This document shows positions 5,040 through 35,986 of a stretch of 44,702 nt of DNA, piece by piece. The notes below the pieces were generated by a model, which saw only the letters and a program-made list of their open reading frames with translations, made no database searches and had not been told where the DNA came from. The stretch is from a virus. Lineage: Duplodnaviria; Caudoviricetes. A program made the position numbers and the translations under genes. Location of the stretch: positions 1 through 44,702 of the IMG/VR virus record IMGVR_UViG_3300037247_000488, one strand, 5' to 3'. Every line of letters begins with the position of its first letter. Positions within the stretch are counted from its first letter, which is position 1.

Positions 5040-8000
5040 CTACTCCTCTCTGGTAAGGTTTTTAACCGCTCGCGGCGTGAACTGTCGCTTGAGGCCCTCG
5101 GCTCCCTTGAGTCCCGGCTTTGTCTTGTACTCTTCAAGCTTTATAAGAGCCTCCAGGTTCTTTCCAAGCTCATGAAGAAAGGTCATGCTCCTCGGAACTG
5201 ACATAAGTAATGACGGATTAATAGCTCCGAGCAGAGTTAAGGACTCACGCTTGATTTTCTTCATGAGCTGACCCATGAAGCTATTGTCGTCCTCATCATC
5301 TCCGAAGCTATGAACTACCAGGGCAATAAACGTCAGATAGACTACCCTGTAAAGTTCCTGAGCTTCCCTGGCTGTCACAGCCTCCTTGAACTTCTTTTGT
5401 TTAAGCCTTGATGCCGTGACCCTGATGTCTTTAATAATTGTTCTAGCTATGACTATTGCCCAGCTCTTATACTGGACTCCAGCTCCACCGAGTGAGGTGC
5501 TTCCTATGAGCGACTTGGTTCCAGGCACAACCCTCATTCTGCCCATTTCAAGCTTGAGCTGTGCGAGGCGCTCATCGCTTATTTCACCCCTATTATACTC
5601 ATCCTTCGTAATCGAGCCAATAAGAAATTGCTTGTTGTGAGTTACGCTTGAGACGTGGAACATAAAGAAGAGCCCCTCCATCAACTTCTGAGGTAATTCC
5701 TTGCCCGGAGCCCAAAATTCCTCCCATGCGCTTCTGCCCGTGAAGACCTCATATTTCTTAAGGAGAGCCCTGCCTTTTTTGGTAGCCATACGTTTCACTC
5801 CGAGAGTATACTTCCTTGGCCCTAACATAGCGGCAGTGGCCATCGCTTCACCGACGATAGCTGACGCTCCAACATAAATGTTACCACCAAGATCTATCAA
5901 GGAGGTGAACGTCCTGAGCGCCCTTATCGACAGGTCTATCTTCTGCCCCTGAGGAATGACACCACCAAAGTCAAGACGCCTGCCCTTCTTGTTGTTGATA
6001 TATTTATAGACGAAATCCTTGAGCTTCTGGTCGGTCGCTAATCCAGTTTTTGTCGTGCCGGTCGGAGAGATCGACTGAGCATATATATCCATTTTCGTCA
6101 TGATGGTATCGAGAGCCATCTTCTTTTCTATGGTCTGGACATAAACCATAAAAGCCTTGACCACGTTACGGGTCGGGTCTATCCCTCCCGTCCTTCTCAT
6201 GGCAAATCTGAAGTGCTTATTGAGGGGGAGTATGTCGCCAGTTCTATCGCTCAGAATCTTAAAGCTCATCTCGTCTTCTTCGTAGCTCTTGAAAATATTC
6301 AGCACGGCCTTTCCGAGGCCATCACTTTTAAGAGTTTCCAAGAAAGACTTGCGAAGATGTATAAAGTAGTTATCACGTCCTCTCTCTAGCGACCTCACTT
6401 TGATAAGATAATCGAGATAGCCAGCGAGCCTTACCTGCATATAGCTGGCAAGGTCTACCTGCTCAGGAGTCATCTGTTTTGCCAAGTCTTGCTTTAGATC
6501 ATCGTCGGACTCAAGGTACTCGAAGACCTGTTCGTCTTGAGGCACAACCCCACGGACGACTTTCTGCCATAGCGTCCCACCCCTGGACTTCTCAGACTTC
6601 TTAGCGAGGGCATAGACTTCACTCTCAATTTTGTGCGCCCTGGCCTCGTGAGCTAAGAGAGCCGTCGTCACTTGGTCGACGAGTATCCTGTAGAAAGGAT
6701 TTTGCTCACGAAGGGCCGAGTCCCACCTGAAGAAGTCAGCCTGCCCTACATCAATATTATTAAGAACCTCAACAGAAACCCCGGCCTCTTTGGCGAGGCG
6801 CTCCTTGGCCTCTCTCCAAGTACGCACACCCTCAAGGTCGCTGAAGTCAATCATCGAGAGCTGTGCCGGGCCGAGGAAGACATCGTCATCCTCGAACTCC
6901 TCAAGCGCATCAGTATATTGGTCGAGCTGCTTAATGCTCATCTGGCTTACAGGCGGAAGCCCGAGGGTCTTTCTGTAGTTGTCAACTTTTCTTAGACGCT
7001 TACGATTAAACAGCTCCATAAGACGAGCCTTGGCGAAGGCGGTCTCCTGAATTTGTTCGGCACGTATAAGGAGATCGTCCTTGAACTGCTTCCATTCGTA
7101 GTTCGTCATATTGCCTATGTTCCGGCGCTTTGTTAGCTTCTTCATCTGGCCGTCGCTCAGGCCGAGGTAGTCCTTGATTATCTTGAGCTGCTCACGCCTC
7201 CGGGCCATCAACTGTGCATCAGTCCTACCTTTTATCCCCGACGCCTCAAGCTCCCTCACCACGAGCATCCTACCCATGACGTCGCGCACATCGTCAGTCA
7301 ACTCGACATTAAGCTCGGTCAAACTTTGGTAGACCTCCATGAGCCATTGCTGAAACTGCTTAAAAGCTTTCTTAAGAGCTGCGTTAGGAGACTTGCCCTC
7401 AAAAAGGAACGCCTCGAAGCCTCGGGCCCATTGCTCATGATGCTCTTCGGTGAGGGGCTGCCCCTCTTCGACTCCGAACCACTTAAGTATCTTGTCGTAG
7501 TCGGCTATAATATCAGCCGGAGCATTCTCGAAAGAGGCCAGCCTACGCATCACTTCGAGATAGAGGTGCCCGGTCTCATGGATGAAGGACGACTTGTCGG
7601 CCCTCTTGAGGAGTTCAATATCAATGCCCTCTAGGCCGAAGGTGATGCGTGCGCGAGGCTCTACCCCTACGGGTTCCTCTGGAAAAAGACCAGCCTCAAT
7701 TGCCGCGTCAACATCTTCGATAGAATAAACTGGTGTCCCGGTTCCGGTTGTCTTGGCATCTACATCTGATCGCAGCGTATCGAGGAACTCGGCAGCGGAA
7801 GGCCTTTCAGTAAAGTATCCGGCCTCCCATGCAGCCTCGGCCATAGCGTCGACGGACAGACCAGTCTTGTTGTTGAGGAGATTGAACCCCTCCTTGATAC
7901 TGAATCGAGAGAGTAGTTCGCCCTTCATGGCCTCGCCAGTAGTCTTGAGCCCACCTGTTTTGCGAACAAAGTCGGCGAGGGTGCGGCGCTTCTCGGGACG

Positions 8001-10184
8001 TTGGGCTTGCTCAAGTATCCTCGGGTCGGTCGGGTCGAAGCGCTGGGCGAAGACGGACTTGATTTGAGTAGGCTCAAAGGCTACATAAGTAGTCTCGTCC
8101 TTATCCGGAAGAGCGAACCCATCAAAGCCTTGCTGTATAACTTCGTCAAGGGTTAGCCTATTGTACTCATCCCAACCAGCCGGGTTCTTAAGTGACAGAT
8201 AGACTTCCTGTATAACGCCCCTACCCTGAGCACCTACCTCTCCCTTCTCGACAGCATCCCTGCTAGAAGTAAACCAGAACTGTCCGCCTATCGTAAACTC
8301 AGGATCAAAAGCTTCAAACTCAGTAGAAGTTCCGTGAAATACCTGTAATGGCTCTCCAGCTTCGTCTACCACCTTGCTCTCTCCAAACCATGCCTTGAAC
8401 GCCGGGGTCTCGGTAACAATTCGACCGGCCTGGTCAAAGGTCTGTCCGTCCTCCTCAACTCTCTCGCCACCTATCCTAATATTCAGTTCCTCGAACATCT
8501 GGACGGGGTCCATGCCTATGCGCTCGGCGAGGGCGCGGAACGGATTACCGTAGAGCACCTCGGCCTGGATAGTGGCATCGGCCTCCGAGACCCCGGCGTT
8601 GAGAAGCTGTTGCTTGACGGAGTTCTTGACCTGGTCCTCGGGCGAGATCTCGGCCTCAAGCTCTCCGGCCTCTACCTTCTCGCGGAACTCACGCACCTGC
8701 CGAATGCTCCGCGCCTCCGTAGTGACTCGAATATCCTCGTTGAGAGCCTCGCCATGGGGCGTGTTAGCTATCTCGGAGGCATACCTCTGGATAGGAATGG
8801 TCACGTCCTCACCGGCAATCCCGGCACCCAGCTTGAGAAGGATGTCGTTGGGGTTCTCGCCCTGTTCTTCCCAGTAGGCGTTCCATATAGAGGCAGGTAT
8901 AAAAACGTCCCTAAACGGGCTGTCACGGGTTATCTCGGTCATTATCTCGTCGTAGGTCTCAGGAGAGCGCTGCCTCACCTTAGAGGCGTCTGATAGGGCC
9001 CCTAAGGCTATGATGAGTTCTTTCTGGCTCTTGGGTTCCTCTTCCCCGACTACCTGGCCGGCAAGATGCCCTATCGAGCTCATACCCACGGTCGCCACCA
9101 CGGTAGCCACGAGAGTCTCGTAGCCTCGACCGGGGCGCTCGGCGAGGAACTCAGATGCGGTCTTGGTCGGATTTAAGGTAGTCCACTCCGTCATGTCCTG
9201 TAAGAGGGTGGCTACCTGCTCAGTCGGAACTTCGGCGGCGATCTGTCTGGCCAGCAACCTGAAGAGGGGCGTCTTCTTAGCTATGTCTCCAAGGAGGCGT
9301 CCCATAGGAATAATCTCAGTGACGATCTCGATAGCGCCCTGAGTCAGACCAAACCTCAGATTTTGAAAAGGAGAGAGTCCGGCCTCGGCTCCCTGGCCGA
9401 AGGCTTGCCCTGTAGTGATACCCCCCAGGATTCCGAGAGCTATCGTAGATCCCCCGGAGAGGATGCCGGCGATGACTGCTGGAACTTGAGCGCCTATGGA
9501 CTCGAAGCCTCCGGCGACCGCGCGAACAGTCGGCCCGAATTCGCTAATGTCGCCACGTATTCCGGTCTGTATCTCTTCGGTTTTGCGGCGATAGGAGCGT
9601 GAGTAGTCTTGCATACTGTCTGCGAACGACCCCGGAACTAGAGACCAGAGCTGCTCATTGATACCGTGCATGGCCGGGAAAATACTGAAAGCGCCCGAGG
9701 CCAGCGACCTCGGAGCCACTCTTCCAACCATGTTAAGAAATGTAGCTTCTGTCCGCCCAAGATTGTCGAGATCATCATAGATAAGCCCCGTTCTATAAGG
9801 TGACTCCCTCATCCATTTTCCGATATGAGGGCTTCTGCGTGCGAAACCTTCGGCGACTCTGCTGATAGATTGCTGTTTGGTGACGTCGAGATTACGCTCT
9901 ATAAAATCCAAGGGGAGTCCAGTTGCTCTCTGGATGTCCAAAACCTCGGCTGATAATTGGGGGGGCTTTCCCGCCCCATCAAGGGTGACGGCATTCAACT
10001 GTTCTGAAGCAGTTACGTCCCCTTCTAAGGTTTTCAAGAAAGGATTCTCTTCTTTCTTGGTTTCGACAGGAGCCGGGGAAGGCACATCGACTATGGGCTC
10101 CTCAGTCAAGGGCCTCGGCGTAACCTCGGCCCGAGTCTGCTCTGACGCTCTTTCTAGTTCTTCAAGATAAGGATTAACGGGCAT
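5040..10184 (-). CDS. Large internal virion (ejection) protein, T7 gp16-position, polyvalent: ART-PolyVal-like and zincin metallopeptidase-like domains
   Basis: 1714 aa, third of three core genes before the tail fibre; FKAWFGESKVVD...VFHGT...YLSLKNP...FEPTQIKS and FIHETGH...HEQWARGFE motifs. Confidence 0.85.
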   Translation of the reverse strand: MPVNPYLEELERASEQTRAEVTPRPLTEEPIVDVPSPAPVETKKEENPFLKTLEGDVTASEQLNAVTLDGAGKPPQLSAEVLDIQRATGLPLDFIERNLDVTKQQSISRVAEGFARRSPHIGKWMRESPYRTGLIYDDLDNLGRTEATFLNMVGRVAPRSLASGAFSIFPAMHGINEQLWSLVPGSFADSMQDYSRSYRRKTEEIQTGIRGDISEFGPTVRAVAGGFESIGAQVPAVIAGILSGGSTIALGILGGITTGQAFGQGAEAGLSPFQNLRFGLTQGAIEIVTEIIPMGRLLGDIAKKTPLFRLLARQIAAEVPTEQVATLLQDMTEWTTLNPTKTASEFLAERPGRGYETLVATVVATVGMSSIGHLAGQVVGEEEPKSQKELIIALGALSDASKVRQRSPETYDEIMTEITRDSPFRDVFIPASIWNAYWEEQGENPNDILLKLGAGIAGEDVTIPIQRYASEIANTPHGEALNEDIRVTTEARSIRQVREFREKVEAGELEAEISPEDQVKNSVKQQLLNAGVSEADATIQAEVLYGNPFRALAERIGMDPVQMFEELNIRIGGERVEEDGQTFDQAGRIVTETPAFKAWFGESKVVDEAGEPLQVFHGTSTEFEAFDPEFTIGGQFWFTSSRDAVEKGEVGAQGRGVIQEVYLSLKNPAGWDEYNRLTLDEVIQQGFDGFALPDKDETTYVAFEPTQIKSVFAQRFDPTDPRILEQAQRPEKRRTLADFVRKTGGLKTTGEAMKGELLSRFSIKEGFNLLNNKTGLSVDAMAEAAWEAGYFTERPSAAEFLDTLRSDVDAKTTGTGTPVYSIEDVDAAIEAGLFPEEPVGVEPRARITFGLEGIDIELLKRADKSSFIHETGHLYLEVMRRLASFENAPADIIADYDKILKWFGVEEGQPLTEEHHEQWARGFEAFLFEGKSPNAALKKAFKQFQQWLMEVYQSLTELNVELTDDVRDVMGRMLVVRELEASGIKGRTDAQLMARRREQLKIIKDYLGLSDGQMKKLTKRRNIGNMTNYEWKQFKDDLLIRAEQIQETAFAKARLMELFNRKRLRKVDNYRKTLGLPPVSQMSIKQLDQYTDALEEFEDDDVFLGPAQLSMIDFSDLEGVRTWREAKERLAKEAGVSVEVLNNIDVGQADFFRWDSALREQNPFYRILVDQVTTALLAHEARAHKIESEVYALAKKSEKSRGGTLWQKVVRGVVPQDEQVFEYLESDDDLKQDLAKQMTPEQVDLASYMQVRLAGYLDYLIKVRSLERGRDNYFIHLRKSFLETLKSDGLGKAVLNIFKSYEEDEMSFKILSDRTGDILPLNKHFRFAMRRTGGIDPTRNVVKAFMVYVQTIEKKMALDTIMTKMDIYAQSISPTGTTKTGLATDQKLKDFVYKYINNKKGRRLDFGGVIPQGQKIDLSIRALRTFTSLIDLGGNIYVGASAIVGEAMATAAMLGPRKYTLGVKRMATKKGRALLKKYEVFTGRSAWEEFWAPGKELPQKLMEGLFFMFHVSSVTHNKQFLIGSITKDEYNRGEISDERLAQLKLEMGRMRVVPGTKSLIGSTSLGGAGVQYKSWAIVIARTIIKDIRVTASRLKQKKFKEAVTAREAQELYRVVYLTFIALVVHSFGDDEDDNSFMGQLMKKIKRESLTLLGAINPSLLMSVPRSMTFLHELGKNLEALIKLEEYKTKPGLKGAEGLKRQFTPRAVKNLTREE

Positions 10185-12344: not shown

Positions 12345-15113
12345 CTACCTCGGTAAAAAGCCTGACGAAGTGACCGCCAAGACGGTTATTGGTAACGGAT
12401 CTATCTGCCTGATAAGAACCTGTCCACTTTTGTTCCATTTGGATACTATATCGACCGTCTGCTCTCCTGTAGTCAACTGAATAGGCGTATCGTAATTTTC
12501 GTTTTGCCTAATCTTCAGCTCAATAAGTTCGTTCAGGTTATCTCTGAATCCGAAAAATCCGCCTCTTGAAGCTTCAAAGTGAATAACTATGTCGCCGATC
12601 TGCTTAGATTTGCCAGCAACGGAAGAGCTGTCCGGGTTGTTATACTTAAGGGTCTCCAGGTCTGCCGTTATGGTGAGCCCGATATGGACAACCGAATGAG
12701 GGTCGTCAAGGGTAATGGTCCCGTTAGAAACTGTCTTTATACCGTAGGCATCATTATTAGGGCTGGCGGATACATAGCCATCCGAGAAGATTGCGACGTC
12801 TTCGCCTTCGAGATGCCAGAGACCACCAACCGAAAGGACGGCATGCTCCCACAGCGTGATAGCCGTATCTTGCAATGCGGCCGGAACTGTCTTGTGAGGT
12901 CTGATCGTGACGACCGTAGGGCTGGTGTAACCAGTGATCGTACACCTTACTACGGTAGTGGCGGTCTTCATCCATATGGCGTGACTGCTCGTCGCGTCAT
13001 TCGATGTGAAGAACGATGCACTTGCTGTCAACGTAAGATCCTCGTCGTACTTCCATGTCGAGCCACCGGAGAGAGTCATCGTAGTGGCGCTCGTGTTGCG
13101 ACCGTCCAGGCTTAAACTCGAATCCATAAATACGGCGTCCACTATGTCTGTGACAAGACGAGTCTTCATGTATTCGATATACTTCACCGTTCGGCCATTT
13201 ATGGTGCGCTCAACGGTCATGTAAAGAACATCCTCAGAGCCCTCAGGAACTACGCATACGCTCTTTACGCTGCCCGACTGGAAGGTATGATTATGCCATG
13301 CCGTAACCTCGTGCTCCTTGATATACGTCAACCCTAAGAGGCGACCGTCACTCCTTGCACACCAGACCGTGGAGTTGGGTATTTTCTGATAAGCCCAGTC
13401 TGCGATGGTGAATTTATCGAAGAGATTAGAGGCGAAGACGGAAAGGTCTACCCCCGTGGTCTGCGATCTCTCTCCGGCGTTGTACCCTAGCTCCCTAACG
13501 GCAGAGCCGTGACCCTGGACATAGAGAGCTGTATCATTAATAACGAGTGGCTCAAGATCGTTTGATCCGTTATAGGAATGCTGCCTGGGATTGATTGCAC
13601 TAGGAATTAATATCCCAGCCGTATCTCCCTCGACAATCCACTCGCCCGACGTAGTAAGGATAAACAGACTCCCAAGATCAAGGAGATGCTTTATGGCATT
13701 GACCTCCTTACCAAGCATGGAGAACGTAACAGGGTCATCATCCTGTAAAGGAGTTGACTTCATAAAATTCTTTCTCAACGTAGACTTGCTAGACCAGACC
13801 CCTTCGATGTCGGCAGTTGTGTTGGCAAACATTTTGCGCTGTTGAAAATAAGTACAAACGGCGGGGTAGGTTCCCACGACGCCAGCGGAAGAATAAGCAG
13901 TGAACGCTGACGAATCCACATCCACCCCGGCAGTGGTCTGTAGTGAAATAGTATCGTCTGTTAACGATGTCATTAAATATTGGATGTCGTTAAGCTCTGT
14001 CATGCCCGTCACGTCATGGACAGTGACCAGAGTGTTAGAGGCGATGCCGTGCGCTACTACTGTAAGGACGCAAGGGTCGGCCTGTGTAGCGTCGGTTATC
14101 ACAACCTCGAAGGGCTGACGATCTACAGGAGGGTTATCTAACACGTCCGGAGTATATGTCGTCTCGGTCTTAAAGGAAGGTGACGCTACGCCCCCGGCCA
14201 ACCCTATCCAACCATACGCACCGTCTTGCAATTTGTAAATATTATAATGCCCAGCTCCAGAAACCGCAGTCCACGTAAGTGTCGTAGCAGCAGTTGAGGC
14301 CTCTTCAAGAGTTGAGGGTAAGCTCTCCTCGCTTGTCTCGGCATCTACCGCCGTCACCTTGTAAGTATGTCCGGAGCCAGGGGAGCTACTGAGTAAGCTG
14401 GTAGGAACTCCAATGGTAGCCTGAAAAACCACGACAGAAAGAGTCCATGTCGTATGCCCTGACCGAGCAAGTTCTCTCTGCTGGTATTTGTTGTGGGTAA
14501 TAGTAATGATGTCGCCAGACTGGGTGAACTTCAAAGTGCTCAGGTCTGCTTCGACGTAAGGCGTAACTACCTCGTAGACCTTGGCTGCCGTCCCGCCTGA
14601 GGTATAAGCCGTGTAGCCGGTTGAGTCGAGATCGGTGCCGTCCATCTCTTGCAGAGAGAAAGTGCTAGACGTCAGGTTCGTAACTTTAAAATTACGACCA
14701 TTCAATTCGGTCATACCGACAATGTCGGCAGCCTGGACTTCGGAGCCGGTAGCGTACCCGTGACCCGCAATTGTAAGAACACAAGGATTGGCTTGCGTCG
14801 CGCCGGTAATCGTCTTGGCCGTCTCGGTTAGCTGAGCCCCGTTCTGATGGACGCGCAAGTAAAGGTTGCCAAACTCAAGCACATAAGTCTGAGAGGCGTT
14901 AAAGACGAAGGGTTTAAGGATAGAGTCTTCGAGCGAATTTTCAACCTCAGCTACAAACCCCGTACCGGCACGATTAGTAGCTCCGCCCTGGCGCATGATC
15001 TGAAAGTTTTCGCACCGATTAAGGCCAGTAGCGTACTTGACGAGATCTACACGAGCCTGTAGAGCGGGTGCGAGGATGCCTCCAGCGAAAGAAAGTTGAC
15101 GCTTCTTAGTCAT
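12345..15113 (-). CDS. Tail tubular protein B / nozzle (T7 gp12-like) with two inserted beta-modules
   Basis: QLSFAGGILAP..RVDL.KY, FTQSGD, YP..TYFQQR and QIDPLPITVLAV motifs; 922 aa. Confidence 0.9.
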   Translation of the reverse strand: MTKKRQLSFAGGILAPALQARVDLVKYATGLNRCENFQIMRQGGATNRAGTGFVAEVENSLEDSILKPFVFNASQTYVLEFGNLYLRVHQNGAQLTETAKTITGATQANPCVLTIAGHGYATGSEVQAADIVGMTELNGRNFKVTNLTSSTFSLQEMDGTDLDSTGYTAYTSGGTAAKVYEVVTPYVEADLSTLKFTQSGDIITITHNKYQQRELARSGHTTWTLSVVVFQATIGVPTSLLSSSPGSGHTYKVTAVDAETSEESLPSTLEEASTAATTLTWTAVSGAGHYNIYKLQDGAYGWIGLAGGVASPSFKTETTYTPDVLDNPPVDRQPFEVVITDATQADPCVLTVVAHGIASNTLVTVHDVTGMTELNDIQYLMTSLTDDTISLQTTAGVDVDSSAFTAYSSAGVVGTYPAVCTYFQQRKMFANTTADIEGVWSSKSTLRKNFMKSTPLQDDDPVTFSMLGKEVNAIKHLLDLGSLFILTTSGEWIVEGDTAGILIPSAINPRQHSYNGSNDLEPLVINDTALYVQGHGSAVRELGYNAGERSQTTGVDLSVFASNLFDKFTIADWAYQKIPNSTVWCARSDGRLLGLTYIKEHEVTAWHNHTFQSGSVKSVCVVPEGSEDVLYMTVERTINGRTVKYIEYMKTRLVTDIVDAVFMDSSLSLDGRNTSATTMTLSGGSTWKYDEDLTLTASASFFTSNDATSSHAIWMKTATTVVRCTITGYTSPTVVTIRPHKTVPAALQDTAITLWEHAVLSVGGLWHLEGEDVAIFSDGYVSASPNNDAYGIKTVSNGTITLDDPHSVVHIGLTITADLETLKYNNPDSSSVAGKSKQIGDIVIHFEASRGGFFGFRDNLNELIELKIRQNENYDTPIQLTTGEQTVDIVSKWNKSGQVLIRQIDPLPITVLAVTSSGFLPR

Positions 15114-28850: not shown

Positions 28851-28895
28851 TCCAGCCTCCTTGGCATTGACCGTTAGGTCGGGTTATAAATTTGT

Positions 28896-29008
28896 TGTCC
28901 ATGGGAGGACTCGAACCCCCACCCCTTCTATCCCTATGCACAGAGATAGTCGGGACTGCCACCTTAGTGCATAAGGTTAACAGGTGTCTACCATTGCACC
29001 ACACGGAC
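28896..29008 (-). ncRNA. tRNA-like RNA (113 nt) with elongated anticodon and variable arms
   Basis: Acceptor GUCCGUG/CAUGGAC plus A; D-arm GUG-CAAUGGUAGA-CAC; T-arm GGGGG-UUCGAGU-CCUCC; central region folds into two long hairpins; no encoded CCA. Confidence 0.8.
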
Positions 29009-29035
29009 ATAGTTCTTAATTCGTGATGATTACAG

Positions 29036-29050
29036 CTAGAAGTGTCTCAT
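29036..29050 (-). other. Putative minigene MRHF*
   Basis: AGGAGGT SD 5 nt before ATG AGA CAC TTC TAG. Confidence 0.4.
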
Positions 29051-29093
29051 ATTGCACCTCCTATGGATATTGATTAGACATCGGCTCATTCAG

Positions 29094-29185
29094 GTAAGAT
29101 GCTCAAGGTGGCTGTCTATCCCATAATCGACCGGGCCGAGTGGTCTATAGCTCTGACGCCGTGCCACCCTGAGCTACGAGCTTAC
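29094..29185 (-). ncRNA. Long imperfect stem-loop, putative structured RNA
   Basis: GCUCAGGGUGGC/GCCACCUUGAGC 12-bp stem (G-U on the minus strand), outer GUAAG/CUUAC, inner CUAUA/UAUGG and GACC/GGUC. Confidence 0.45.
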
Positions 29186-29207
29186 TTTACCATTCTCCTT
29201 AAAGGTG

Positions 29208-29573
29208 TCAACCCCTCTTTTTCTTCTTACCCTTCACGAGACTGGCTACGGATGGGGTAGCCTCTACAACTCTGTACCCGAGGTTGAGATATGAGCCTAT
29301 CATAGAGACGGCATTATGAAGAGAGACCACTTTATAGCCGACCCCTTCAGTCGCTACTTGCTTCTCTAGGGGTATCTTAATATTGGCATTATCTTCGAGG
29401 GCCTCCAAGCGTATGTGTACGCTCGCGAAGCGCTGCACGAAGTCCACCCTGTTATTCTCCAAGGTCTTGAACTCCGCATCTATCTGGCGCTTGAAGTGAC
29501 ACCGAAGAAGAACATCGGCCACAAGCACCAGTATGAGCGCTATAACTATAAGTGCGACTGTTGTGTTCCCCAT
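29208..29573 (-). CDS. Membrane-anchored hypothetical protein
   Basis: GGAGG SD before ATG 29573; N-terminal TM VALIVIALILVLVA. Confidence 0.6.
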   Translation of the reverse strand: MGNTTVALIVIALILVLVADVLLRCHFKRQIDAEFKTLENNRVDFVQRFASVHIRLEALEDNANIKIPLEKQVATEGVGYKVVSLHNAVSMIGSYLNLGYRVVEATPSVASLVKGKKKKRG

Positions 29574-31599: not shown

Positions 31600-31895
31600 C
31601 CCTGGGGGGGGTGGGGGGTCGGTTTCGCGTAATCAAATCATAACTATACATAATTATACTACTTAACCCCCTTATATATATAGAGAAGTATTTGATTACA
31701 GAGGGGCGTAATCAAATGAAATCAAATGCCGAAAGCGGTAATCAAATGCCTTTTGGTAATCAATTAAAATCATTTGATTACGTGTTTTCCTATTTGATTT
31801 CATTTGATTACGGGGCTCGGTAATCAAATATTCCCCTTATAGAGCGTACACTTACAGGCCTAAAATCATTTGATTACGTGATAAGGGGGTACGGG
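31600..31895. repeat. Putative replication origin: about 11 G(T/A)AATCAA(A/T)T iterons in both orientations with an AT-rich segment
   Basis: Copies near 31629(+), 31690(-), 31708(+), 31718(+), 31738(+), 31756(+), 31772(-), 31792(-), 31802(-), 31820(+), 31868(-); non-coding; directly downstream of the primase-helicase. Confidence 0.8.
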
Positions 31896-34826: not shown

Positions 34827-35029
34827 TTACACCCGGCAAGCCTATCTGTCAAGTCCCTCTTGTTTTTCTTAAGCCTGAAGACTTCGACCCTTGACCTCTC
34901 AAGCTCTCTCTGAAGTTCCTCCTCGAAGTCTAGCGTGTATGGTTCGCAAGGAAAAGCTCCACGCCTGTTGGCTATAGGGTCGAGCATGTGCTTCTCGTCT
35001 TTCATTCTGAATGACTCTGGCATTACCAT
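34820..35029 (-). CDS. Hypothetical protein
   Basis: 69 aa with a short coiled coil; overlaps both neighbours. Confidence 0.5.
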   Translation of the reverse strand: MVMPESFRMKDEKHMLDPIANRRGAFPCEPYTLDFEEELQRELERSRVEVFRLKKNKRDLTDRLAGCKC

Positions 35030-35745
35030 ACCTCGCTTTCGTTATAACTCTTTATAATATTCTTGACGGAGCCTTCTGGTTTTAATGTGAAACCTATTTC
35101 TTCCTCTAGGGCGCTGATCTTAGCAATAGCCGAGGGGTTGTGGCGCTCGATGGCTGCGAGTTCTCTGGCCCCAGCGAATATGCAGACCTGGCAACTAAAC
35201 CTTGATAGATAGTTGTAAATCGGATGGAGAGGTATTTGAAGCTCGCGTAGATACCTTCTAACTTCGACTTCCGTCCAGTCTTGAATCGGGAGCCAATCCC
35301 AAACCGTGCGCTTTGAGTTTGTCATGCTCTTGTTGCGGGACAGGGGCCTCTTCTTCGCCCGAGCCGCTGACTCTTCAGCTCTGAGCCCCATTGCGCTGAC
35401 GATAGTGGTGTCCTTTATATTATTACGAATCCACTTCTGTATAGGGCCACGTTTGAGATCGCTAGTGCACTGCCTCTGGGCTGGGGCCGGGAACATCTTA
35501 CGATGCCTCACCATTCCGAAGAAGTCCTTGTTAGGATTGCGAACCACGTGGAGTTTTAAAGGGGCGTGATTGGTGCGAGCCGTTATCTTGTTTACCATCT
35601 CGGTGCACCACTCAACGACACCCTCGTGCTCCCACCCAGTATCAGCCAGGACGACATGCTTCTTGACCTCGGGCTTGTCCTGGCAAAGCCATGCCAGCAT
35701 CGCACAACTATCCTTGCCTCCTGAAAAATTGACTACAAGCTCCAT
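35023..35745 (-). CDS. PAPS-reductase-family PP-loop protein
   Basis: GGAGG SD before MELVVNFSGGKDS; DTGWEH, RQCTSDLK, GLRAEESAAR, PIQDW, RFSCQVC. Confidence 0.9.
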   Translation of the reverse strand: MELVVNFSGGKDSCAMLAWLCQDKPEVKKHVVLADTGWEHEGVVEWCTEMVNKITARTNHAPLKLHVVRNPNKDFFGMVRHRKMFPAPAQRQCTSDLKRGPIQKWIRNNIKDTTIVSAMGLRAEESAARAKKRPLSRNKSMTNSKRTVWDWLPIQDWTEVEVRRYLRELQIPLHPIYNYLSRFSCQVCIFAGARELAAIERHNPSAIAKISALEEEIGFTLKPEGSVKNIIKSYNESEVW

Positions 35746-35746
35746 G

Positions 35747-35986
35747 CTAATACCCCTCCACTTGCGCTTGTAATTTTGACGCGTGTTTCTTATCCCATTC
35801 CGCCTTGCGTCTATTATATATTGGTATGCAACGCTTGCATGCACCACCCATTAAAATAGACTCCTTGAACCCTTGGGGGCTTTCAGTATGCGATGACACT
35901 TCATACGTCTGCTTGCGCTCTACGGAACAGGCTGCATCATTCCATGTTCTGCTTTGCCTTAAGTGCCAAATTGCCCTTGCCATCAT
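35747..35986 (-). CDS. Hypothetical protein, first gene of the leftward arm
   Basis: AAGGAG SD before ATG 35986; H.......AAC...CKRC. Confidence 0.6.
   Translation of the reverse strand: MMARAIWHLRQSRTWNDAACSVERKQTYEVSSHTESPQGFKESILMGGACKRCIPIYNRRKAEWDKKHASKLQAQVEGY

What the first reader, a model, noticed from the sequence alone, without database searches (positions are those of the whole stretch)
28896..29008. tRNA-scaffold RNA whose two extended arms end in complementary (kissing) loops
Seen on the minus strand: a 7-bp acceptor stem, a class-II-like D-arm (UGGUGCAAUGGUAGACAC) and a canonical T-arm (GGUUCGAGUCC), so the elbow looks intact. The anticodon arm is about doubled (CUGUU-A-ACCUU / AAGGU-GGCAG, loop AUGCACU with U-GCA at its centre). 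The variable arm is a long hairpin (UCCC..CUAUCUCU / AGGGAUAG..GGGG, loop GUGCAU). The loops AUGCAC and GUGCAU are exact reverse complements, and the pairing can extend to 10 bp (CCUUAUGCAC/GUGCAUAGGG) as an alternative fold. There is no encoded CCA. Inference: the arm is too long to decode, so this may be a tRNA mimic. It could form an intramolecular kissing pseudoknot, act as a two-state switch, or oligomerise hand-in-hand as phi29 pRNA does through complementary loops. It could also be a decoy for anticodon nucleases or synthetases. The many retained G-U pairs argue against simple decay.
Basis: partly seen in the sequence, partly recalled or inferred. Interest (0 to 1): 0.9.

Follow-up and report, generated by a model that had tools for sequence, protein, structure and literature searches.

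The report
Phage tRNA-Leu mimic with complementary tips
A phage carries a 113-base gene with the complete upper body of a leucine tRNA and two over-long lower arms whose tips are complementary; it likely cannot read codons, likely belongs with the unexplained tRNA-like RNAs of phages T5 and T4, and its tips are predicted, not shown, to pair.

Summary
The structure is real. It is a tRNA-Leu frame (7/5 acceptor/T, Leu D arm, A15/U48, A73, no encoded CCA) with both lower arms about doubled, downstream of a sigma-70-type promoter in a phiV10/BPP-1-like podophage. It is not unique: one pattern finds about 1,500 viral stretches with a Leu frame and a long variable middle, and T5 RNA1 (GenBank: tRNA-like, function unknown) has the same layout. 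This scan has noted the class before on other DNA. The loops AUGCAC/GUGCAU are exact complements (chance 0.0005-0.003), but no homologue exists to test covariation, other members show no excess of kissing loops (1 of 56 against 0.24 expected), and the predicted exposed loops share only the palindrome UGCA. As a precedent, T4 RNA C keeps a 6-bp loop-loop match in 7 of 7 homologues aligned, with one compensatory change. A decayed copy of the 5' part lies just upstream, while the element keeps the tRNA-Leu D arm, which suggests selection. Best reading: a host-processed, probably leucylatable, non-decoding scaffold RNA whose tips may lock or dimerise it. A pRNA role is unlikely. No expression data.

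The parts
29184..29211 (-). sigma-70-type promoter-like site (TTGACA, 16 nt, extended -10 TG-TAAAGT), likely driving the non-coding stretch
   Evidence: 10 of 12 matches; consensus match only (2 found in 2 kb, 1.4 expected)
29101..29174 (-). upstream structured element: 12-bp stem closing a predicted three-way junction; possible second small RNA, unidentified
   Evidence: z -2.43, 4 of 200 shuffles; no Rfam match on this strand; no convincing homologue
29015..29068 (-). decayed tandem copy of the element's 5' 46 nt (acceptor 5' strand, D arm, 5' side and loop of the long anticodon arm)
   Evidence: score reached by 1 of 3000 shuffles and 1 of 1142 genome windows; D part 0 of 5000; anticodon-arm part 14 of 21 identical, P 0.011
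28896..29008 (-). tRNA-Leu-framed RNA gene, 113 nt, no encoded CCA
29002..29008 (-). acceptor stem 5' strand (pairs with 28903-28897; discriminator A73 at 28896; U at -1)
   Evidence: sequence
28984..29001 (-). tRNA-Leu-type D arm (U8, A14, A15, G18, G19, U20, A20a)
   Evidence: identical 18-mer in ordinary tRNA-Leu genes L123, L124 and L254, L268
28956..28983 (-). extended anticodon arm: 5 bp, bulged A, 5 bp, loop 1 AUGCACU at 28972-28966
28922..28955 (-). extended variable arm: 4 bp, GA/AA internal loop, 8 bp, loop 2 GUGCAU at 28941-28936; followed by U48 at 28921
28904..28920 (-). canonical T arm (5 bp, loop UUCGAGU)

Best explanation
The gene has the upper body of a leucine tRNA and two lengthened lower arms with complementary tips, and likely makes a stable non-decoding RNA in which the tRNA body would serve as a handle for host processing and leucine charging while the two arms, predicted to be locked or dimerised by tip pairing, would be the working cargo. 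Steps: transcription from the promoter at 29211-29184 (inferred); 5' cut by RNase P, 3' trimming and CCA addition by host enzymes (inferred from the intact 7+5 bp branch and elbow); leucylation by host LeuRS, which ignores the anticodon arm (inferred from identity elements shown in the sequence); exclusion from decoding because the anticodon arm is 10 bp (inferred from ribosome geometry, own knowledge); display of a compact two-arm domain that most likely binds and titrates a host tRNA-binding or anti-phage protein (inferred, no target identified). I put the scaffold part at about 80%, a real loop-loop contact at about 40%, and the protein-decoy role at about 50%.
For: All bacterial leucine identity elements listed in PMC9976931 (passage: A73, A15-U48, G18G19, A20a, D/T loop contacts; anticodon and variable arm dispensable) and PMC2377443 (abstract) are in the sequence. 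The class is large: about 1,500 viral stretches estimated for one pattern; 90 non-redundant members analysed keep A73 in 73 and U48 in 85, neither required by the search. T5 RNA1 has the same layout, 487 GenBank records match it, and 11 of 36 predicted pairs show changes on both sides in 9 aligned copies, with invariant tip-loop cores. T4 RNA C keeps a 6-bp loop-loop match in 7 of 7 aligned homologues with one double change. Engineered tRNA scaffolds protect RNA inserted at the anticodon arm (PMC3753655, passages). The neighbouring relic has lost U8 and G18G19 while the element keeps the outgroup D arm. The nearest terminase relative has tRNA-derived sequence at the same place (L335).
Against: No homologue of this middle part, so no covariation. 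Loop complementarity is not enriched in the class: 1 of 56 other members with two or more hairpins reaches 6 nt against 0.24 expected (P 0.22), 3 against 1.4 at 5 nt, 8 against 7.2 at 4 nt; at that null rate a few of 1,500 members would show such a match by chance (my arithmetic). T5 RNA1, the closest layout, has only a 3-bp possible tip match without double change. The T4 double change is reached by 61 of 500 shuffles. Predicted loops are only 5 and 4 nt, and I see no kink-turn that would bend two straight arms together (own reading, no 3D model). In the unprocessed transcript the acceptor stem is predicted not to form once 30 or more leader bases are included. No binding partner is identified.
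Confidence: 0.5

Rival explanations
1. The RNA is a functional scaffold, but the tip match is a by-product: the variable arm arose as an inverted copy of the anticodon arm, or the match is chance helped by the palindrome UGCA, and the loops do not pair in the folded RNA.
For: The reverse complement of arm 1 aligns with arm 2 beyond the loops (P 0.013 under a structure-keeping null; 4 of 2588 genome windows score as well). The locus has other duplications (relic), and another class member carries a direct tandem copy of one arm (L164). UGCA also occurs in the D arm. No class-wide excess.
Against: Both arms are fully paired yet differ in sequence, so they have drifted while the six loop bases stayed exact complements (sequence; no outgroup to polarise). 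T4 RNA C precedent.
Confidence: 0.3
2. The RNA is a two-state switch: a single rod (10 bp + 6 bp cross-pairing of the arms) in the precursor and two arms in the mature RNA, with tip kissing as the nucleation step, coupling 5' processing to refolding.
For: For the middle alone the two folds are within 0.2 kcal/mol, a gap reached by 2.6% of structure-keeping shuffles. Rod probability is 0.70-0.96 with leaders from 29040 upward against 0.17 for the mature length.
Against: With the tRNA frame enforced the rod is 1% at 37 C (2.8 kcal/mol higher; 0.1-5% from 15 to 50 C). The model has no term for the L-shape. The leader pairing that favours the rod is made of short imperfect helices.
Confidence: 0.1
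3. It is a decaying tRNA-Leu pseudogene enlarged by local duplications, with no function.
For: Singleton; region of orphan genes; a clear relic beside it; L335 has a degenerate tRNA at the matching place.
Against: 37 predicted pairs without a stem mismatch beyond the Leu-typical C13/A22, every identity element kept, while the adjacent copy lost them; the same layout is conserved with compensatory changes in T5-like phages.
Confidence: 0.1
4. The arms are antisense guides against the phage's own mRNAs, as for C4 RNA of P1.
For: Loop 2 contains CAU (complement of AUG); other AI notes report such cases elsewhere (unchecked).
Against: Longest perfect complement of the middle in the genome is 10 nt, inside terL; mean duplex z-scores over 48 start regions are -0.22 and -0.03; the best single one (-3.4, gene at 12345-15113) uses a stem strand. 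Host targets could not be tested.
Confidence: 0.05
5. It is a decoding tRNA, either read directly through U-GCA as cysteine or after removal of an intron.
Against: The arm is 10 bp and position 37 is C; the ARAGORN product has a 4-bp stem with a U/C mismatch on a Leu body; no bulge-helix-bulge and too short for a self-splicing intron (sequence; own knowledge).
Confidence: 0.03
6. It is a phi29-type packaging RNA that forms rings on the portal.
For: Two complementary loops; it lies about 3.4 kb upstream of the terminase genes on the same strand.
Against: The phage encodes both terminase subunits, a motor type that needs no RNA (own knowledge); no Rfam pRNA match.
Confidence: 0.02

Closest known systems
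Phage T5 RNA1 (NC_005859.1 30501-30644; annotated 'tRNA-like stable RNA with unknown functions'); also T5 RNA2
   Same: Leu-type D arm, lengthened anticodon arm, lengthened variable arm, two bases before a 5-bp T arm, no encoded CCA in RNA1
   Different: No sequence likeness in the middle; T5 RNA1 lies in a tRNA array whereas this phage has no ordinary tRNA; T5 RNA1 tips match by 3 bp at most
Phage T4 RNA C (species 1 RNA, rnaC, NC_000866.4 70908-71046; function unknown per PMC3014915 and PMC9697503, passages)
   Same: Acceptor-like stem and T arm; a variable-arm hairpin whose loop matches an upstream hairpin loop over 6 bp
   Different: No Leu D arm; its first loop sits on a side branch, not at the tip of a straight arm; different loop sequences; conserved in 751 records
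Bacterial tRNA-Leu (class II; Rfam RF00005)
   Same: Acceptor, D and T arms and all listed LeuRS identity elements; D and T arms nearly identical to phage tRNA-Leu(UAA) in L124
   Different: Anticodon loop replaced by a 16-nt hairpin; variable region about 35 nt; no Leu anticodon
Engineered tRNA scaffold (PMC3753655, passages)
   Same: Acceptor, D and T arms kept, anticodon region used as insertion site
   Different: Natural, Leu frame, both lower arms enlarged; processing here is untested
phi29 pRNA (recalled)
   Same: Two complementary loops on one RNA
   Different: pRNA has no tRNA frame; this phage has a two-subunit terminase

Membership tests
Decoding tRNA-Leu | 7/5 acceptor-T branch, D/T loop elbow bases, A73, A15/U48, A20a | tested here: met
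   sequence; element list from PMC9976931
Decoding tRNA-Leu | 5-bp anticodon stem with 7-nt loop, Leu anticodon, purine 37 | tested here: not met
   10-bp arm, loop AUGCACU; ARAGORN no call
Decoding tRNA-Leu | aminoacylation with leucine | not testable with these tools
   needs in vitro charging
T5 RNA1-type tRNA-Leu-framed phage RNAs (uncatalogued) | Leu D arm, T arm and acceptor kept, with an oversized structured middle | tested here: met
   113 nt lies within the 96-130 nt of 89 other members (range limited by my search pattern)
T5 RNA1-type tRNA-Leu-framed phage RNAs (uncatalogued) | sequence homology of the middle to T5 RNA1 or another member | tested here: not met
   blastn against all loci held, best E 0.65; no GenBank phage match
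T5 RNA1-type tRNA-Leu-framed phage RNAs (uncatalogued) | accumulates as a stable RNA in infection | not testable with these tools
   needs RNA data from an infected host
T4 RNA C | 6-nt complementary loops, one on the variable-arm hairpin | tested here: met
T4 RNA C | loop match conserved or covarying among homologues | tested here: inconclusive
   no homologue of the window's RNA
T4 RNA C | RNA C sequence and branched 5' domain without a Leu D arm | tested here: not met
tRNA-Sec, allo-tRNA, selC* tRNA | 8/5, 8/4 or 9/3 acceptor-T branch; for tRNA-Sec also long D stem and UCA (recalled) | tested here: not met
   7/5 (U-1 could pair with A73, but the D arm is Leu type and there is no UCA); 8/4 and 9/3 from PMC5389517 abstract; no Rfam tRNA-Sec at gathering
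Intron-containing tRNA | splice signal and canonical product | tested here: not met
   ARAGORN product has a 4-bp stem with a mismatch; no bulge-helix-bulge seen in the sequence
phi29 pRNA | Rfam pRNA model; phi29-type motor without small terminase | tested here: not met
   terS and terL present
tmRNA, YrlA (Y RNA), C4 antisense RNA | match to the family model; Ro60 neighbour for YrlA; antisense targets for C4 | tested here: not met
   no TROVE domain in 58 ORFs scanned

The most novel reading that the evidence does not exclude
Phages have repeatedly built tRNA-handled RNAs whose two lower arms kiss: this Leu-framed RNA and T4 RNA C are independent instances. Here the kiss also nucleates a rod fold that holds in the precursor and is released by 5' processing, giving a charged RNA that dimerises or locks and titrates a host defence or tRNA-binding protein.
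Probability: 0.2. Interest if true: 0.75.

Novelty: new variant of a known kind. Interest (0 to 1): 0.45.

Why it matters
T4 RNA C and T5 RNA1 are annotated stable RNAs whose role is still given as unknown (PMC3014915, PMC9697503, GenBank). This element adds an independent Leu-framed case and a concrete test: a 6-bp loop-loop contact that can be broken and rescued, most easily in T4 RNA C in laboratory E. coli, where the match is conserved. If the class is charged by LeuRS and carries folded cargo, it is a natural version of the tRNA scaffold used in biotechnology and an uncatalogued layer of phage non-coding RNA. For this single copy, however, the kiss cannot be told from chance or duplication without experiments.

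Tried and rejected
Homologue searches that failed: blastn of 28860-29200 against GenBank phages, no match at E 1; exact D-arm pattern in viral contigs, 4 loci, 3 ordinary tRNA-Leu and 1 without tRNA frame; two-loop pattern, 6 of 119 loci passed my tRNA-frame filter and none has the loops on two arms as here; D arm plus distant T loop in metagenomes, 8 loci, 4 ordinary tRNAs and 4 oversized with unrelated middles; relaxed D-arm pattern, 51 loci, no related middle; GTDB D-arm scan, 23 loci over many phyla, no host inference. Relatives by the 397-aa neighbour and by the primase: none in viral contigs; by terL: 10 loci at 32-59% identity, none with this RNA. Sequencing runs: one DNA holder (X1, marine sediment metagenome, possibly the source), no variants; no RNA holder listed. 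Neighbour proteins: 2 relatives of the 397-aa protein without Pfam domain; no usable Atlas hit for the 108-aa protein. The idea that the upstream stem, the promoter region or arm 2 are further copies of the element was tested and rejected (P 0.32, 0.40; 0.22). Pairing of the upstream stem with arm 1 has predicted probability 0. Self-complementary loops are not enriched in the class (10 of 89 against 9.7). One ungapped relic comparison used a wrong start and is disregarded; one search repeats it correctly. Literature searches showed no paper on this class or on kissing in RNA C; the library lacks most subscription papers, including the 1970s sequencing papers that I only recall.

Full report
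Setting. The window is a whole 44.7-kb virus record. Its genes are those of a phiV10/BPP-1-like podophage: GP7 capsid, Bbp16, head-tail connector, small and large terminase, primase-helicase (58 of the 141 listed ORFs were scanned, no integrase among them). The capsid is 53% identical to that of phiV10 and terL at most 57% to GenBank phages, so no close relative is known. The element lies in a 360-nt gap between two orphan genes on the minus strand, about 175 nt behind a sigma-70-type promoter-like site. The only run holding it is one DNA run of marine sediment.

Observation. Every feature quoted is in the sequence. Rfam scores it as tRNA just above the gathering score, with 59 nt in place of 17 model positions, which is not a clean hit; ARAGORN misses it. 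The fold is better than shuffles (z -2.67; middle -3.13). The 6-nt loop match has a chance of 0.00047 (random) or 0.0029 (composition kept). In the predicted fold both loops close further, to UGCAC and UGCA, so six pairs need two weak closing pairs to open.

The frame is tRNA-Leu. The 18-nt D arm occurs letter for letter in ordinary tRNA-Leu genes of phages (L123, L124) and bacteria (L254, L268), and L124 shares the T arm but for one base. PMC9976931 (passage) lists A73, A15-U48, G18G19, A20a and the D/T loop contacts as leucine determinants in E. coli and says that variants lacking the anticodon and variable arms stay active; PMC2377443 (abstract) agrees for Aquifex, adding variable-arm orientation; PMC12360207 (passages) says LeuRS does not read the anticodon but contacts the variable-arm backbone. 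All these bases are present here. So charging with leucine is likely once CCA is added (inference), and a Leu frame is a natural place to hang a foreign lower half.

It is one of a class. A pattern asking for a Leu D loop and a T loop 52-82 nt apart matches about 1,500 viral stretches, of which 120 were returned. Parsing all loci then held gave 131 distinct frames, 118 oversized, 92 non-redundant; I dropped 2 with a whole tRNA nested inside, leaving 90 with the window's. A73 (73 of 90) and U48 (85 of 90) are kept although not searched for; CCA is encoded in 7 of 90. The middles are unrelated. Earlier AI notes of this scan describe the same class and pointed me to T4 and T5. I checked these: T5 RNA1 has a Leu D arm with both lower arms long, matches 487 GenBank records, and in 9 copies chosen for divergence 11 of 36 pairs change on both sides while the tip-loop cores stay fixed. 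The layout is thus under selection in a model phage.

Is the kiss real? For: the low chance value; and T4 RNA C, whose loops UUGACG and CGUCAA match in 7 of 7 aligned homologues (7 of 751 records, picked for divergence), with a double change in a Yersinia phage and both hexamers unchanged in phage Melville, where the rest of that arm has diverged (61 of 500 shuffles reach the double change, slid controls pair 17-50%). Against: no homologue of the window's middle in any collection searched; no excess in the class (1 of 56 at 6 nt against 0.24), so a few chance cases are expected among 1,500 members; T5 RNA1 offers 3 bp only; arm 2 resembles an inverted copy of arm 1 beyond the loop (P 0.013), which would give complementary loops for free; and two straight arms without an evident kink suit pairing between molecules better than within one (own reading; a two-copy fold pairs the variable arms across molecules). 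I put a real contact at about 40%.

Switch. The rod is a near-equal fold for the isolated middle (-23.5 against -23.7 kcal/mol; 2.6% of structure-keeping shuffles come as close), is 17% of the unconstrained mature RNA and 1% with the frame enforced, and 70-96% when 30 or more leader bases are added. This allows a precursor-to-mature switch but rests on a secondary-structure model alone.

Selection. A decayed copy of the first 46 nt lies at 29068-29015. It has lost U8 and G18G19, whereas the element agrees with outgroup tRNA-Leu, so the D-arm changes fall on the relic. The relic also covers the long anticodon arm without gaps (14 of 21 identical), so that arm predates the duplication. This is better evidence against decay than the G.U count. 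The nearest terL relative (L335, 59%) has, about 3.9 kb upstream of terL, a degenerate tRNA (Rfam 23.5 bits), a three-way junction and a small stem with a similar D-loop motif, so this is a habitual place for tRNA-derived RNA.

Rejected. Decoding or splicing, pRNA, tRNA-Sec or allo-tRNA (PMC5389517 abstract and one section), antisense control of phage genes, anticodon-loop mimicry as a class trait (1 of 89 against 0.65).

Literature. PMC9697503 and PMC3014915 (passages) call RNA C and RNA D expressed RNAs of unknown role. PMC7609411 (passages) has no occurrence of 'phage'. PMC3753655 (passages) describes the engineered scaffold. Eight searches (listings only) showed no description of the class or of kissing in RNA C; older subscription papers are not in the library.

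Verdict. A real, probably functional, non-decoding tRNA-Leu-framed RNA of the T5 RNA1 kind, with a tip match that has a conserved precedent in T4 RNA C but no support of its own beyond the sequence. New variant of a known, uncatalogued kind; interest 0.45.

Noticed in passing
L245:1409-1547 (T4 rnaC) and L329-L334: T4 RNA C loops UUGACG and CGUCAA are complementary, kept in 7 of 7 aligned homologues with one compensatory double change; not found in print in my searches.
   Followed up: yes
L277:3002-3145 (T5 RNA1) and L347-L354: Both tip loops are nearly invariant while stems covary; a 3-bp CCR/UGG match is kept in all 8 distinct copies.
   Followed up: partly
window 29101-29174 (-): 12-bp stem closing a predicted three-way junction right behind the promoter; possible second small RNA, no family found.
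   Followed up: partly
window 29015-29068 (-): Decayed tandem copy of the element's 5' part.
   Followed up: yes
L335:6055-6330 (+): Degenerate tRNA, three-way-junction RNA, a short stem carrying a Leu-like D-loop motif without T arm, then a terminator-like hairpin, upstream of packaging genes.
   Followed up: partly
L164 (minus strand, around 290-400): Leu-framed RNA whose middle is a direct tandem repeat with the self-complementary hexamer GUGCAC twice.
   Followed up: no
L278 and L324: A whole tRNA-like unit nested inside a tRNA-Leu frame (middle over 100 nt).
   Followed up: no
L100, L286, L087; L277:5460-5584 (T5 RNA2): A second T-loop-like hairpin inside the middle: 3 of 89 class members against 0.23 expected.
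   Followed up: partly
L247 (minus strand, around 200-310): Same D arm, normal-length anticodon arm with loop UUAGGGA and a long branched variable arm: a possible recoding or non-decoding tRNA.
   Followed up: no
window 5040-10184 (-): 1714-aa protein with ART-PolyVal (ADP-ribosyltransferase-like) and LPD22 domains: a polyvalent virion-type protein.
   Followed up: no
window 31692-31827: Near-perfect long inverted repeat downstream of the primase gene (two mirror ORFs); possible origin or terminator region.
   Followed up: no
window 35023-35847 (-): PAPS-reductase-domain gene, in phages often tied to DNA modification (recalled).
   Followed up: no
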